A stretch of DNA of 64,000 nucleotides from a virus: positions 32,001 to 96,000 of the IMG/VR virus record IMGVR_UViG_3300029787_000001, one strand, 5' to 3'. Below, one piece after another: positions 4,759-29,271 of this stretch (position 1 is its first letter; each line of letters opens with the position of its first letter). The position numbers and the translations under genes were made by a program. The notes under the pieces are model-generated. The model saw nothing but the letters and a program-made list of their open reading frames with translations, did no database searches and was not told the DNA's origin.

Positions 4759-4787
4759 CCGCTGGCACACCGGTTAAAGTGTGCCAC
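4759..4787 (+). repeat. Hairpin repeat CCGCTGGCACACCGGTTAAAGTGTGCCAC, copy 1
   Basis: Identical 29-mer at 4991-5019; 26-nt match at 21290-21315. Confidence 0.95.
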
Positions 4788-4799
4788 ACATGCTCACCA

Positions 4800-4985
4800 C
4801 CAACATAGGGTCCGAGTAGGTACAGGGAACTGGCTTCAGCGCTAATGCTGACTAAGATGATCCAGTAACGGAAACAACGCTCACCCGTGAGCGGGTCATG
4901 CTAATGATGTTGGAAACAATGTATAGGACAAGTTGATCACTTGTCCGAAAAGACGCCTAACAGAGATTAGGAGTGTCCCTGACAT
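4800..4985 (+). ncRNA. Candidate structured ncRNA between the two hairpin repeats
   Basis: No plausible ORF; at least six helices found by eye (see findings). Confidence 0.6.
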
Positions 4986-4990
4986 TGCAA

Positions 4991-5019
4991 CCGCTGGCAC
5001 ACCGGTTAAAGTGTGCCAC
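4991..5019 (+). repeat. Hairpin repeat, copy 2
   Basis: Identical to 4759-4787; ends 5 nt before tRNA-Gln. Confidence 0.95.
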
Positions 5020-5024
5020 TTTAT

Positions 5025-5100
5025 TGGGACGTGGCGCAATTGGTAGCGCATCGGTTTTTGGCACCGAGGGTTGTAGGTTCGAGTCCTACCGTCCCAGCCA
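5025..5100 (+). tRNA. tRNA-Gln(TTG)
   Basis: T1-A72, G73, loop TT-TTG-GC, CCA. Confidence 0.92.
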
Positions 5101-19800: not shown

Positions 19801-21038
19801 CGCCGACCTCGCCCAGAAGGGCACTGTCTGGACGGTCGGCTCGACCACCTACCGAATCGACTGAACATTCTTTCCCGTTTCCCCTTGACAAGTGGAGCGG
19901 GACAGGTTACATTACAAGAGTAACAAGAAAGGAGAGATAACAATGTTCCCCTACTTCCACCACTTCGCCGCTGTCATCTTCAACGATGTCCTCCTGAACC
20001 GCAACGATGCGGGTCTGCGGCAGAATCTCCGGTACCTCGCGCAGGACCTCGGCATCATCCCCGTCGATGACTGGGCGAGCAGCACCGACTGAGCGAACTT
20101 TCCTTCCACTTTCCCCTTGACAGAAGAACCCAGACAGGTTACATTACAAGAGTAACAAGAAGGGAGAGAAAAGATGAACCAGATCGAAGCCCTCGACGTG
20201 CTCACGATGCACGATCTCTTCGGAGACGGCAGGCGCGACACCCTCACCGCCGCCATCGCGGTGATCGAGCCCATCGCCACCCGCCGCGCCCACAACGGGA
20301 CCGGCGACAGCATCGACTTCATGCTGGAGATGGTGCAGGGCGCCCGCGAGGATCTGTCTCGCATGGCTCCGTGCCCGTCCGGTCGCTGGTAGCGCACACT
20401 GCTGAGAGGGCAGCGGGTTCGACTCCCGCACGGGTTAGCATCTGGCCGGCTGGTTGCTTCATGGGTTCGAGTCCCATGACCGGTAGCTCTGCACGGACCC
20501 GTAGGGCGGCGACTCCCTCTCACTTTCCTTCCACTTTCCCCTTGACAGACTGACCCTAACGGGTTACATTACAAGAGTGAGAGGGAGACAGACTCCCCTC
20601 CAATCCCCAAGCAAGTGAGTTGACACCATGGCTAACCTCTTCGTCCTGAACCTCGTCGGAACCACCGCCCCCCTCGCCGCAGACAAGAACGCCAACCGCC
20701 TGATCGCTCTCGCGGTCGATATGCTCGCAGGCGACAGTGCCCCGGAGCCGGTCGAGGTCCCCGACACCGACGCCCTCCGCGCTGCCCTGTTCACCCGCGT
20801 CGCCACTGGTGAGGTCTCCCCGGCAGACTGCGCCGCCGAACTGAAGGCAATCGATCAGCAGGTCGCTGACGCTGCGAAGGCTGCGAAGGCTGACCCGCCC
20901 GTGCTCTCGCTCGCTGGCACGCCGGCGTCCGCTGCGATGATTAAGAGGGCGTTTCGCGGAGCGGAGTCCGGCACGAGCGTGGAGGTCGCAAGCCTCGACG
21001 GCGAGCGCGTCGGTTCGATCACAATGTTTCGTTGTTAG
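16833..21038 (+). other. Series of small early ORFs, most with their own promoter (16833-17018 Zn finger, 17023-17223, 17220-17405 KOW, 17402-17593, 17685-17837, 17983-18069, 18151-18357, 18553-18825, 18825-19007, 19052-19276, 19324-19557, 19634-19864, 19943-20092, 20174-20392, 20628-21038)
   Basis: Promoter, GGAG and ATG spacing; C-rich third codon positions. Confidence 0.7.
20365..20500 (+). ncRNA. Candidate RNA with two tandem tRNA T-arms
   Basis: GCGGG-TTCGACT-CCCGC (20413-20429) and TCATGGG-TTCGAGT-CCCATGA (20459-20479) enclosed by TCCGTGC/GCACGGA. Confidence 0.6.
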
Positions 21039-21114
21039 GAATGTTCCGGGTCTGAGACTCCAAAAAAAGATAACAGAAAGCCCTTGACAGGTGAGCCCAT
21101 CCGGGTTACATTAT

Positions 21115-21290
21115 AAGGGTAACAAGCGACAAGAGGTCCGCGACATGAAAGGTCCGAACTGAACATTCATGCATAGGCTGGGAGGCGTCCCACCTGTGAG
21201 CAGTAGCAAGAGCGACGCACAGAGGTGAACCTGACCCGAACGGGAGGGAACCTGCCTCTTCAAACACGACAGCAATAGTCCAACCCAGCC
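21115..21290 (+). ncRNA. Candidate structured ncRNA A
   Basis: Promoter at 21084 with no RBS or ORF; GGCTGGG/CCCAGCC closing helix with nested stems. Confidence 0.55.
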
Positions 21291-21315
21291 CGCTGGCACA
21301 CCGGTTAAAGTGTGC
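21290..21315 (+). repeat. Hairpin repeat, copy 3
   Basis: CCGCTGGCACACCGGTTAAAGTGTGC. Confidence 0.9.
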
Positions 21316-21325
21316 TCCCCTTTCT

Positions 21326-21510
21326 ACGAGAGCCGATCACCTCGCGCCAACGAGAAGCATCGGAGACATTGCACAGGTTTGGCGACCTGTGACGTGTGGG
21401 GCATAAGGTGCCCCGATGGCTTGACCGAACCTCGCAACCCACGCCACCAACGAAGGCGCAGGAGCGACAAGTAGCCGGTCATCTCTGCGGGTTCAACTCC
21501 CGCCTCTCGT
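21326..21510 (+). ncRNA. Candidate 185-nt tRNA-like RNA with a kissing-loop insert (ncRNA B)
   Basis: 7-bp acceptor ACGAGAG/CTCTCGT abutting T-arm GCGGG-TTCAACT-CCCGC; loops CGCCAA and TTGGCG are complementary. Confidence 0.7.
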
Positions 21511-21604
21511 TTCCTTTACAGTCCGAGACAGCAAAAAAAGATAACCCTAACCCCTTGACAGACTAACGGCAGCGCGTTACATTACATGTAAGAAGGGAGA
21601 GACA

Positions 21605-26135: not shown

Positions 26136-26825
26136 TTGAAGCTACTAATTGAAAATTGGAGAAAGTTTGTCAACGAAGGCGTGAATTCTAATTTCACTGT
26201 CTCGATGGACCCTCAAGACTTTTTGACCCTAACTTATCAGGACGATGCCGACATTGAAGGCAGATCCGACTACATTCTTGGAATGCCGGGCGGATTTGAT
26301 AAGACAAAAGCCGGCAAATTGTCTCTTGTTATCAAGAAATGCTGGGATGATGGCGTAGATAAGGTTATTTCCCACGCTGGACGTGCTCGCTCTATGGCTG
26401 CTATGAAGTCTGGGGTGAAGCAGATGCCAGTAATCTTGACTTTTGTTAACTGCGACGAGAAGCCCGTGCGCGGAATGCCAAGTCTGAATTTTATTTCTGA
26501 TAGATTGGAAGGTCAATTTGATAATTCTTCTATCTCAGTAGATAAGATAGGCAAATACGAATCCCAAAGGGCTCTTGATCTTGGCACAAGAACAGAAATG
26601 TCAACAGGAGAACTGTTAAAAACCCTACGAATCACTTTTCTAGAGAAAGCTACAAATGATTATAGAATGGCTGATTTTGTTTCGGACCTAAATAAAGAAT
26701 ATAATTTTATGCTCTCAGGCGAACCCGAACAGGTGAAGGTTATGGTAAAAGATGGACTGCGCTTTCCGGGGTTTGAGTCGGATCCTCCCGAAGATTCCAA
26801 TGTAAAGGTGTTAAATAAAGAATAA
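26136..26825 (+). CDS. MKLLIENWRKF-leader protein with a ParB/Srx-like cargo
   Basis: Leader; VISHAGRARSMAAMKSGVKQMPVIL. Confidence 0.6.
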   Translation: MKLLIENWRKFVNEGVNSNFTVSMDPQDFLTLTYQDDADIEGRSDYILGMPGGFDKTKAGKLSLVIKKCWDDGVDKVISHAGRARSMAAMKSGVKQMPVILTFVNCDEKPVRGMPSLNFISDRLEGQFDNSSISVDKIGKYESQRALDLGTRTEMSTGELLKTLRITFLEKATNDYRMADFVSDLNKEYNFMLSGEPEQVKVMVKDGLRFPGFESDPPEDSNVKVLNKE

Positions 26826-26827
26826 CA

Positions 26828-27469
26828 ATGAAACTACTGCTTGAAAATTGGCGCGCTTATCTGGATGAAGAGCAGATAAACGAAAAAATGATGCTGAAAC
26901 CCGGTCCGCAGGGCTGGGATCTCTACGCACAGTTGGTTGGCGATGCCTATTTGGCTGCTCCCAAGTTTGAACAGAGGGCAGTCCCGCATTTTCAAGCTAT
27001 GACACCCTTTCTGGAAAAAATGTTTAAGAGGATCTCAAGCAGAGTAGACATAGAATTCGTTGATTACCACCCCTATAACACAGCAGCAGAGCTAAGAGAT
27101 GCAGTAAACAGCACTGGAAAGATGAAAGTTGCTACAATTGACGCCGAACATGATGTGTTTGACGAAATTACGAACGCAAAATTCAGAGCGGTCCACGATT
27201 ACATGTCCCACATTCAGGCAATCGGCTCACGAGGAACCGAATTTGATTTGAGAGGGGAACTTGCCTCTTATAATGCTCACCTCAAAACAATGCCACAGGA
27301 GTCTATTCCTGCCTTATTTACCGAGATTGTCGGACAGACTTGTGCTTACCACGCTGGTGGCGGCACTTTCGCAGAACAGAAGATCTGTCTATTAGATGGC
27401 TTTGATTACATCAATCTTGGTGTTGTCGAAGGCTATGACATAGTTAATAAGGAATTGGTAAAGAAATGA
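26828..27469 (+). CDS. Leader protein with a conserved phage domain (FRAVHDY..H)
   Basis: Leader; NAKFRAVHDYMSH...GELASYNAH...LFTEIVGQ. Confidence 0.6.
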   Translation: MKLLLENWRAYLDEEQINEKMMLKPGPQGWDLYAQLVGDAYLAAPKFEQRAVPHFQAMTPFLEKMFKRISSRVDIEFVDYHPYNTAAELRDAVNSTGKMKVATIDAEHDVFDEITNAKFRAVHDYMSHIQAIGSRGTEFDLRGELASYNAHLKTMPQESIPALFTEIVGQTCAYHAGGGTFAEQKICLLDGFDYINLGVVEGYDIVNKELVKK

Positions 27470-28119
27470 AACTACTACTTGAAAATTGGCGAAAGTTCTT
27501 GACTGAAAATGAGGCGGCTTACTTCCCTTGGCTAGAAGAATTAGAAGCGCAAGGTGGAGAAGCCCTTATGGGTCCTGATTTTCAACAAGCAGGCTCAGGA
27601 GCATTCCGTGTTGTCTTCAAGCCAAAAGGAGATGAGGACCATGTCATCAAGCTATCGAAAGATCCTCGCAACAATTGGATGAACAAGATAGAGTCCGAAA
27701 CAGCCAATTCTTACCCCGATTTGTTTCCAAAGACATTTGCTCATGCTGATGATTGGGAATGGATTGTCCAAGAGGCTGTCGAAGTGCTGACCCGAAGAAA
27801 CGAGCAGCAAATGCGTGTTATGTTGCAGAAGACTTTTCCAAACATCTATGTTGTCTTCAAGGGTGCAACTCTAAAAGATCATGAGCTTTCTGGCTTATGG
27901 AGCGACATTGTTGATGCAGCAAGGGGTCCTTACGCAACAAAAGACCAGAAGATTTTTGATTTTGGAATAAAGAACGAAAAAGCCTTCATCCAGCTTGCTT
28001 CAGCTATCTCTAAATTTAAGATAGACAGCGAAGATCTGGGTTATGGCAACATAGGAATAAATGAACAAGGACAATTAAGGATCTTAGATGCCTCTGTGCT
28101 TCTCAGACCAAAGGAATAA
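27466..28119 (+). CDS. Leader protein with a kinase-fold cargo
   Basis: GSGAFRVV, VIKL, EDLGYGNIG, LRILD. Confidence 0.65.
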   Translation: MKLLLENWRKFLTENEAAYFPWLEELEAQGGEALMGPDFQQAGSGAFRVVFKPKGDEDHVIKLSKDPRNNWMNKIESETANSYPDLFPKTFAHADDWEWIVQEAVEVLTRRNEQQMRVMLQKTFPNIYVVFKGATLKDHELSGLWSDIVDAARGPYATKDQKIFDFGIKNEKAFIQLASAISKFKIDSEDLGYGNIGINEQGQLRILDASVLLRPKE

Positions 28120-28121
28120 TT

Positions 28122-28601
28122 ATGAAACTACTACTTGAAAATTGGCGTCAATTTATGAATGAGGATGTGCGAGTCACATTTAAAAAAGCAATTGATTTGG
28201 TCTGCCCCCCAGCAACACAGGACTTGGAACTTAACACGAAGAACCGTGATTCCGCAATTCATGCTGAACACATTCAGTACGGTCCTCTGAATGTCGGAAT
28301 GCCCGGTGACTACTGGGAAGAAATCGCCGACTACTGGAACACAACTGAAGAGGCAGCCGAAGCTTCTAACTGTGGGGTTTGCACTGCTTTTGACATTTCT
28401 CCTAGAATGTTGGAATGCATGCCCGGCGAAACATCCGATGAAGACGGTGTTCTCGGCTATTGCTGGATGCATAACTTCAAGTGTCACTCTGCGCGTGCTT
28501 GTAGAACTTGGGCAAAGGGTGGACCCATAGAGGAAGATTCAGTTTCTGCTGATTGGCAGGAGCGCTCAAACATAGGTAAAGAGAATGAAACTACTGATTG
28601 A
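28122..28601 (+). CDS. Leader protein with a Cys-rich cargo
   Basis: CGVC...C...GYCWMHNFKC...C..W. Confidence 0.6.
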   Translation: MKLLLENWRQFMNEDVRVTFKKAIDLVCPPATQDLELNTKNRDSAIHAEHIQYGPLNVGMPGDYWEEIADYWNTTEEAAEASNCGVCTAFDISPRMLECMPGETSDEDGVLGYCWMHNFKCHSARACRTWAKGGPIEEDSVSADWQERSNIGKENETTD

Positions 28602-29271
28602 AAACTGGCGTAAGTTCTTGGCTGAAGAAGAAGTTCTAGTTGAGAAATGCTGGGACGGCTACAGACAAGCTGGGCTTAAAAAGAAAGGTGACCGAATGGT
28701 CCCCAACTGTGTCCCAATTGGTGGAAAGAAAGACGAAGCAATGGAGATAAATGAAGAGCAAGGTCAATACATCGGCACTATTGACGATGTGGGCTCTGAC
28801 CTTTATCGCATCTCCAAGCGCTATGGAGACAAGGGCGACAATTATGAACGATTTCAGAAGGGAGCCAAGGTCATAAGGTCCCGTAACACGTCCGCAGATG
28901 ACCAGCAGCCCTATCTAAATTCTGATGGAGACCCAGAGCATAGGATTTATTTTTTCGGCTCTGGAGACGACGCTAAGGCTGCTATGATGTCCGACACACA
29001 AGAGTTGGAAGCAATCGTCGGCGACTTTTCTGACGCAGACAAGGAAAAAGGCATCAATGAGAATTTGTTGTTAGTCCGCATTTCGATGAACCAAGTTCCA
29101 AAAGAGGTTGAATTCTTCACCGATTACGAATTGGAAGGAACTCCCTACGATGCTATTTATGGTGCGTACCCAGATGGTCGGGCTTGGACTCTCGCCCCCA
29201 AATCAAATGACATTCAGTTAGCGACCGATCTACTTAACTATGAAGAGGACGATTACTATGAAGATTACTAA
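28585..29271 (+). CDS. Leader protein with a KCWDGY..VPNCVP motif and unknown cargo
   Basis: Leader; KCWDGYRQAGLKKKGDRMVPNCVP. Confidence 0.6.
   Translation: MKLLIENWRKFLAEEEVLVEKCWDGYRQAGLKKKGDRMVPNCVPIGGKKDEAMEINEEQGQYIGTIDDVGSDLYRISKRYGDKGDNYERFQKGAKVIRSRNTSADDQQPYLNSDGDPEHRIYFFGSGDDAKAAMMSDTQELEAIVGDFSDADKEKGINENLLLVRISMNQVPKEVEFFTDYELEGTPYDAIYGAYPDGRAWTLAPKSNDIQLATDLLNYEEDDYYEDY

What the first reader, a model, noticed from the sequence alone, without database searches (positions are those of the whole stretch)
21326..21510. 185-nt tRNA-like RNA whose D and anticodon arms are replaced by a kissing-loop domain
Seen: perfect 7-bp acceptor stem ACGAGAG(21326-32)/CTCTCGT(21504-10) stacked on a canonical T-arm GCGGG-TTCAACT-CCCGC (21487-503). 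Between them are hairpin CTCG-[CGCCAA]-CGAG on CCGAT/ATCGG, hairpin CACAGGT-[TTGGCG]-ACCTGTG, hairpin GGGGCA/TGCCCC and a long irregular stem (GATGGC/GTCATC, TCGC/GCGA, CGCC/GGCG). The two 6-nt loops are exact reverse complements, which predicts a loop-loop pseudoknot. The locus has a consensus early promoter (21084) and no RBS or ORF. Known: acceptor plus T-arm is the surface read by RNase P, the CCA enzyme, EF-Tu and tRNA-cleaving defences; tmRNA and YrlA use similar mimicry. It lacks G3-U70, an encoded CCA and a tag ORF, so it is not a standard tmRNA. Inference: an early-expressed tRNA mimic or decoy of an undescribed class.
Basis: partly seen in the sequence, partly recalled or inferred. 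Interest (0 to 1): 0.9.

Follow-up and report, generated by a model that had tools for sequence, protein, structure and literature searches.

The report
Phage tRNA-framed RNA with kissing loops
An uncultured 191-kb phage carries a real, conserved 185-base RNA gene that keeps a tRNA's acceptor stem and T arm but has no anticodon; two hairpin tips pair with each other, the same design I found in phage T4's long-unexplained RNA C, and its function is untested.

Summary
Observation confirmed. Window 21326-21510 folds as described (z -3.4; a 6-nt loop-loop complement in 0 of 300 shuffles). I found 13 further distinct homologs (59-99% identical). 97% of cells pair, 22 pairs show double changes, and the kissing pair varies as A-U, C-G and U-A (at least two independent events). 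There is no Rfam, tmRNA, YrlA or ARAGORN match. New here: an invariant loop-E-like motif (GAA/AGUA) in the long arm; an acceptor/T frame closest to tRNA-Leu; pair 1:72 broken in 4 of 14; no CCA in any, while 9 of 10 tRNA genes in this window encode it. The RNA is one module of a shuffled array of early non-coding RNAs, 242 nt from the promoter. T4 RNA C has the same acceptor + T arm + covarying 6-nt kissing loops, in reverse order and without the extra arms, so the class is not wholly undescribed. The scan has also reported this design in many other phages. Best reading: a stable, tRNA-processed, non-decoding RNA whose locked core binds a host protein (about 40%). Expression and function are untested.

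The parts
21084..21112 (+). Sigma70-type early promoter cassette; transcript start near 21119 (inferred); drives a multi-module non-coding transcript
   Evidence: the same cassette precedes most early genes
21133..21290 (+). Separate conserved upstream RNA module ('module X'); present before the element in most but not all homologs, sometimes in tandem
21290..21316 (+). Small leader hairpin (probable H-type pseudoknot) ending about 9 nt before the element; the same motif precedes true tRNA genes here (4991-5017) and in relatives
21326..21510 (+). The 185-nt tRNA-framed RNA (whole element)
21326..21332 (+). Acceptor stem 5' strand, pairing with 21504-21510; two pairs covary; pair 1:72 unpaired in 4 of 14
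21333..21363 (+). P2 hairpin (5 bp, internal loop, 3-4 bp) with kissing loop at 21345-21350
   Evidence: 6 of 9 pairs with double changes
21364..21397 (+). Invariant AGA linker and P3 hairpin with kissing loop at 21379-21384; arm length close to that of P2
21398..21414 (+). P4 short hairpin, sequence variable
21415..21483 (+). P5 long irregular arm; invariant GAA (21427-29) opposite invariant AGUA (21470-73), a loop-E/sarcin-ricin-like motif (inferred from sequence); the tip is variable
21484..21503 (+). Invariant UCU linker and canonical T arm (21487-21503)
21504..21514 (+). Acceptor 3' strand and trailer; no encoded CCA; N73 varies (U, C, A)

Best explanation
It is an accessory, stable, non-decoding phage RNA built on a borrowed tRNA top half. 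SHOWN by comparison: the fold (acceptor, P2, P3, P4, P5, T arm), the P2-P3 loop-loop pairing, and selection on the junction and on the GAA/AGUA motif. INFERRED, step by step: (1) it is co-transcribed from the early promoter at 21084 with other RNA modules. (2) The acceptor/T-arm top half, most like tRNA-Leu, is read by the host's tRNA-maturation nucleases (RNase P at the 5' end, 3' trimming). This cuts the RNA out precisely and makes it stable, as for a tRNA; it is a handle, not an aminoacylation site. (3) The matched-length P2 and P3 arms pair tip to tip within one molecule and lock a compact core in place of the D and anticodon arms. (4) The working surface is this core plus the invariant junction and loop-E arm, which binds a host protein and diverts or inhibits it early in infection; most plausibly an RNA-binding defence or translation-control protein. 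It works like T4 RNA C in design.
For: Covariation in P1, P2, P3 and the kissing pair. The kissing pair needs two independent double changes on the tree. 74 of 189 positions are invariant and cluster in the loops, the linkers, GAA, the AGUA stretch and the T arm, while the P4 and P5 tips vary. The element sits behind the same leader motif, at the same spacing, as true tRNA genes. The frame scores best against tRNA-Leu in an unbiased set of 100 phage tRNAs. Relaxed 1:72 and N73 and absent CCA show the acceptor end is not under tRNA-like constraint. It lies in the early promoter-cassette region, swaps neighbours between phages and is missing from most relatives, the pattern of an accessory host-interaction gene. 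T4 RNA C has covarying kissing loops on the same frame.
Against: No partner gene travels with it; the upstream 136-aa ORF is absent from several homologous loci and has no family. Most double changes separate just two clades. The loop-E assignment rests on sequence alone. Tip-to-tip pairing within one molecule, rather than between molecules, was not tested. The host is unknown.
Confidence: 0.4

Rival explanations
1. True tRNA decoy: after CCA addition the acceptor/T-arm half titrates EF-Tu, RelA-type sensors or tRNA-attacking defence enzymes; the rest only stabilises the fold.
For: Canonical T arm and 6-7 bp acceptor in all 14; frame close to tRNA-Leu; in the three clade-2 homologs the trailer reads A-C-C, one base from ACCA.
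Against: No CCA in 14 of 14, against 9 of 10 tRNA genes in the window; 1:72 broken in 4 of 14, which among 297 phage tRNAs occurred only in Met and Gln types; no anticodon or D arm to attract anticodon nucleases or synthetases; strong conservation far from the acceptor end is not needed for this role.
Confidence: 0.22
2. Punctuation mark: the tRNA-like frame only directs RNase P to cut the polycistronic non-coding transcript and mature the upstream module (as mascRNA does for MALAT1).
For: Last module of a non-coding early transcript in several loci; same leader as tRNAs.
Against: The upstream neighbour differs between loci (module X, the two-T-loop module, or a protein gene), and the interior motifs are invariant, more than RNase P needs.
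Confidence: 0.12
3. Stand-in for, or derivative of, tmRNA: a tag-less ribosome-rescue or SmpB-binding RNA in a lineage that lost tmRNA.
For: tmRNA is present in 15 of 20 related records (9 of 10 complete) but absent from G000 and G001, which carry the element; the syntenic tRNA cluster of G001 is present and lacks it. A relative's tmRNA has the same T arm as most homologs.
Against: One lineage event only. G024 lacks both; G028 has tmRNA together with another kissing-loop tRNA frame. No G3-U70, CCA, D-loop, tag ORF or phage SmpB.
Confidence: 0.08
4. The loops pair between molecules to build dimers, rings or cages (as phi29 pRNA does), with a structural or packaging role.
For: Two complementary 6-nt loops on separate arms; size similar to pRNA (own knowledge).
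Against: The arms are adjacent and of similar length, which suits pairing within one molecule; absent from most relatives, so not a core packaging part.
Confidence: 0.08
5. C4/CI-like antisense regulator released by RNase P, with loops that pair to phage mRNA targets.
For: C4 and CI are phage RNAs matured by RNase P (own knowledge).
Against: No excess of complementary sites in the genome beyond a tRNA T arm and one 13-mer within helix P3; the loops are matched to each other; no C4 hit (the control was uninformative).
Confidence: 0.05

Closest known systems
Phage T4 RNA C (rnaC, species 1 RNA; NC_000866 70908-71046)
   Same: Acceptor-like stem plus canonical T arm, no D or anticodon arm, no encoded CCA, and two hairpins whose 6-nt loops are exact complements (TTGACG/CGTCAA in T4; TTGATG/CATCAA in Yersinia phage fHe-Yen9-01). 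The T4 loop hexamers differ from ours by one compensatory pair. Function unknown (PMC9697503); not in Rfam.
   Different: Loop order is reversed; one very long and one short arm instead of two matched arms; no P4 or loop-E arm; 139 vs 185 nt; lies in the tRNA cluster and is a late RNA (PMC9697503), whereas ours is in the early region. Model R2 scores it 14 bits, below T4 tRNA-Leu at 25, so homology is not detected.
Phage T5 stable RNAs RNA1 and RNA2 (annotated 'tRNA-like stable RNA with unknown functions')
   Same: Phage RNAs with tRNA acceptor and T arm and an enlarged, non-decoding middle.
   Different: They keep a D-arm-like hairpin and show no 6-nt loop-loop complement in the predicted folds.
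tmRNA (RF00023)
   Same: Acceptor plus T arm without anticodon; the T-arm sequence is shared with tmRNAs of related phages.
   Different: No G3-U70, CCA, D-loop, tag ORF or pseudoknot ring; no Rfam or ARAGORN hit.
YrlA / bacterial Y RNA (RF02553)
   Same: tRNA-elbow mimic found in phages.
   Different: Not permuted, no D arm, no Ro-binding stem; no TROVE gene and no YrlA hit in the genome.
Class II tRNA-Leu (RF00005)
   Same: Best match for the 31-nt acceptor/T frame (up to 27 of 31).
   Different: No D arm, anticodon arm, A73 or CCA; not recognised as a tRNA.

Membership tests
tRNA (RF00005) | 7-bp acceptor stem and 5-bp T arm with TTCRANY loop | tested here: met
   (pair 1:72 broken in 4 of 14)
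tRNA (RF00005) | D arm and anticodon arm with a 7-nt loop; score above the Rfam cut-off | tested here: not met
tmRNA (RF00023) | G3-U70 alanine identity and CCA end | tested here: not met
   3:70 is G-C in 14 of 14; no CCA
tmRNA (RF00023) | Internal tag reading frame and match to the family model | tested here: not met
   lengths vary out of frame
tmRNA (RF00023) | SmpB binding and ribosome rescue | not testable with these tools
   no phage SmpB; host protein not testable
YrlA (RF02553) | Permuted tRNA domain with D and T arms plus Ro-binding stem, near a Ro60 gene | tested here: not met
C4 antisense RNA (RF01695) | Match to the C4 model; loops complementary to target sites in the phage | tested here: not met
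   negative but its control did not ring
T4 RNA C type (rnaC) | Acceptor plus T arm, no anticodon, two hairpins with complementary 6-nt loops | tested here: met
T4 RNA C type (rnaC) | Sequence or model-level homology to rnaC and same arm order | tested here: not met
   14 bits with R2, below ordinary tRNAs; no blastn match among cultured phages; loop order reversed
T4 RNA C type (rnaC) | Discrete stable RNA in infected cells, matured by tRNA-processing enzymes | not testable with these tools

The most novel reading that the evidence does not exclude
Phages have repeatedly grafted kissing-loop domains onto a tRNA top half to make a class of stable RNA effectors, of which T4 RNA C is the oldest example. 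This family carries a loop-E (sarcin-ricin-like) arm that acts as an RNA decoy or inhibitor of a host defence or translation protein, and belongs to a swappable early 'RNA toolkit' array; an RNA-only counter-defence or host-takeover mechanism.
Probability: 0.2. Interest if true: 0.85.

Novelty: new variant of a known kind. Interest (0 to 1): 0.57.

Why it matters
T4 RNA C and the T5 stable RNAs have been known for decades without a function. This family shows that the same design is under selection in an unrelated, uncultured phage group, and gives specific handles for tests: a covarying kissing pair (also shown here for T4 RNA C) and an invariant loop-E arm. The T4 loops can be mutated and rescued in a laboratory phage today. 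The locus also shows an early region that carries several uncatalogued structured RNAs as interchangeable modules, which protein-centred annotation misses entirely.

Tried and rejected
Rfam at gathering and E-value thresholds, on the window and on homolog loci: nothing relevant. First pattern scan with fixed loop hexamers: 43 chance hits near tRNA T arms. Looser viral scans: no new close members. GTDB scan: one hit (L191) with no R2 match, so no host-encoded copy was found at that sensitivity. Cultured phages by blastn: no match. L314 has the same arm order and 6-nt kissing loops, but its 34 bits lie only just above class II tRNAs (up to 30 bits); I treat it as an architectural look-alike, not a proven homolog. 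L315 was a tmRNA end. The idea that the TTGGCG loop reads tRNA CCA ends, T-box style, was dropped because one homolog lacks the needed UGG. An SD-like AGGAG in P5 is not conserved. Antisense targets: none convincing. The first isotype comparison used loci biased by my own T-arm pattern and was repeated on unbiased loci. The 'GAA..AGTA False' flags and clade-2 arm lengths printed are regex artefacts; one search gives the true picture. Literature searches found no description of this family; the Fremin 2023 candidate set (PMC10690425) could not be checked because its supplements are not held.

Full report
Setting. The window is part of a 191-kb IMG/VR phage record, rated complete, with no close cultured relative. 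The finding lies in an early region where nearly every small gene has its own TTGACA-17-TACATT promoter cassette. The host is unknown; two homologous contigs carry Tara Oceans names.

Observation. The element folds better than all 200 shuffles (z -3.36). The two 6-nt loops are exact complements, which occurred in 0 of 300 shuffled folds. Rfam 15, ARAGORN and single-family searches for tmRNA, YrlA and C4 find nothing here. No gene is called across it.

Homologs. A syntenic copy turned up in the closest relative (L045), and a metagenome pattern scan gave more. The set is 14 distinct sequences, 59-99% identical, in two clades. On the model-fitted alignment 96.8% of cells pair and 22 of 60 pairs have double changes; slid controls give 34-45%. 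On an unfitted MAFFT alignment 97.6% pair and 12 of 38 pairs have double changes, and RNAalifold finds the same nested helices unprompted. The kissing helix is 100% paired, and its one variable position is A-U in 11, C-G in 2 and U-A in 1, needing two independent double changes on the tree. Several double changes fall within a clade (P2 in L185 and L190, acceptor in L184), so the signal is not only the clade split. G-U variants and the promoter fix the + strand. Lengths of 180-189 nt break any reading frame.

What selection keeps and what it lets go. 74 of 189 positions are invariant: the base of the acceptor and P2, both kissing loops, the AGA and UCU linkers, the T arm, and GAA opposite a nine-base stretch containing AGUA in the long arm. 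GAA/AGUA with a flanking C-G pair is the signature of the loop-E or sarcin-ricin motif (established knowledge; the assignment here is inferred). The tips of P4 and P5 vary freely. At the acceptor end, pair 1:72 is broken in 4 of 14, N73 is U, C or A, and none encodes CCA, whereas 9 of 10 tRNA genes in the window do. Among 297 phage tRNAs an unpaired 1:72 occurred only in Met and Gln types. The 31-nt acceptor/T frame is closest to tRNA-Leu in an unbiased set (up to 27 of 31). I read this as a tRNA-derived handle that must stay helical and keep its T loop but need not be charged.

Context. The promoter is 242 nt upstream. Between it and the element lie another conserved RNA module and a 27-nt leader motif. 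That motif also stands just before tRNA-Gln in this window and before tRNA genes in relatives, which suggests the element is matured like a tRNA (inference). In homologous loci the neighbours change: tandem module X copies, the two-T-loop module of 20393-20527, an 88-nt cloverleaf downstream, or a protein gene. The element is therefore an independent unit in a shuffled array of non-coding RNAs. Among 50 related records, 10 of them complete, only the closest relative carries it, so it is accessory. The genome has no Ro60, CCA enzyme or SmpB.

tmRNA link. 15 of 20 related records carry a tmRNA; G000 and G001 do not, though G001's syntenic tRNA cluster is present. This is a single lineage event. 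One complete relative lacks both, and another holds a tmRNA beside a different kissing-loop tRNA frame. The tmRNA identity features are absent. I record this as a lead only.

Comparison with known RNAs. T4 RNA C is annotated as a small stable RNA and is a late RNA of unknown function (PMC9697503). Its fold is an acceptor-like stem, two arms and a T arm. Its two loops are exact 6-nt complements (1 of 300 shuffles) that covary in a Yersinia phage homolog and differ from ours by one compensatory pair. Loop order is reversed, it lacks P4 and the loop-E arm, and model R2 does not detect homology. So the element works like RNA C in design but is not shown to be a member of its family. Two more look-alikes appeared: L314, with the same arm order and a different complementary pair, and L108, which keeps a D arm. 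Earlier notes of this scan report tRNA frames with kissing loops in many other phages; these are unchecked leads, and none is sequence-similar to this element.

Mechanism. Shown: fold, pseudoknot pairing, pattern of constraint, modular context. Inferred: early transcription, excision by RNase P and 3' trimming, tip-to-tip pairing within one molecule (adjacent arms of 12 and 11-15 nt), and a protein-binding surface formed by the locked core and loop-E arm that diverts a host protein (about 40%). Rivals: acceptor-end tRNA decoy (22%), processing punctuation (12%), tmRNA stand-in (8%), multimer or packaging RNA (8%), antisense RNA (5%).

Verdict. A real, well-supported, uncatalogued RNA family and a new variant of a known but unexplained kind (T4 RNA C-like tRNA-framed stable RNAs). 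Interest 0.57: strong structural evidence and a testable link to an old open question, but no expression or functional data, and the design recurs widely.

Noticed in passing
L170:409-547 (-) (T4 rnaC); L320, L321: T4 RNA C has two hairpin loops that are exact 6-nt complements and covary in Yersinia phage fHe-Yen9-01; I did not find this pairing described in the papers searched.
   Followed up: partly
window 21290-21316, 4759-4785, 4991-5017; L142-L169: Conserved 27-nt leader motif, probably a small pseudoknot, placed before tRNA genes, non-coding RNAs and some protein genes in many related phages; not in Rfam. Could protect or mark 5' ends.
   Followed up: partly
window 20393-20527; L173, L175, L176, L185, L188: Conserved RNA with two T-loop hairpins, each followed by an acceptor-like strand whose partner lies downstream (permuted, nested tRNA-like layout); directly upstream of the 185-nt element in L176.
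   Followed up: partly
window 21133-21290; L171, L174, L184, L186, L190: 'Module X', a conserved structured RNA with at least two subtypes, often in tandem upstream of the element; no Rfam match.
   Followed up: partly
window 4786-4990; L153:3317-3459 and 4919-5068; L164:1943-2096: About 200-nt ORF-free structured RNA inside the tRNA cluster, bracketed by two leader motifs, with homologs in other phages; no Rfam match.
   Followed up: partly
L172, L178, L183, L186, just 3' of the element: An 88-nt cloverleaf-shaped module without a canonical T loop follows the element in four homologous loci but not in this window.
   Followed up: partly
L314:1501-1683 (-); L108:9213-9360 (+): Two other tRNA-framed RNAs with exact 6-nt complementary loops, in a jumbo phage and in a related 186-kb phage that also has a tmRNA.
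   Followed up: partly
G000, G001, G024 versus 15 related records: tmRNA is nearly universal in this phage group but missing from the lineage that carries the element.
   Followed up: yes
L326, L337, L348, L361: 115-116 nt phage tRNA-like genes with D and T arms and an enlarged anticodon/variable region; unrelated to the query, seen.
   Followed up: no
window 26136-28629, 39052; 23958, 29257, 29478: Runs of unrelated proteins that share short N-terminal leaders (repeat families D11, D12, D17).
   Followed up: no
window 20628-21038: 136-aa ORF upstream of the RNA array in many homologous loci; no Pfam or Atlas match; not a constant neighbour.
   Followed up: partly
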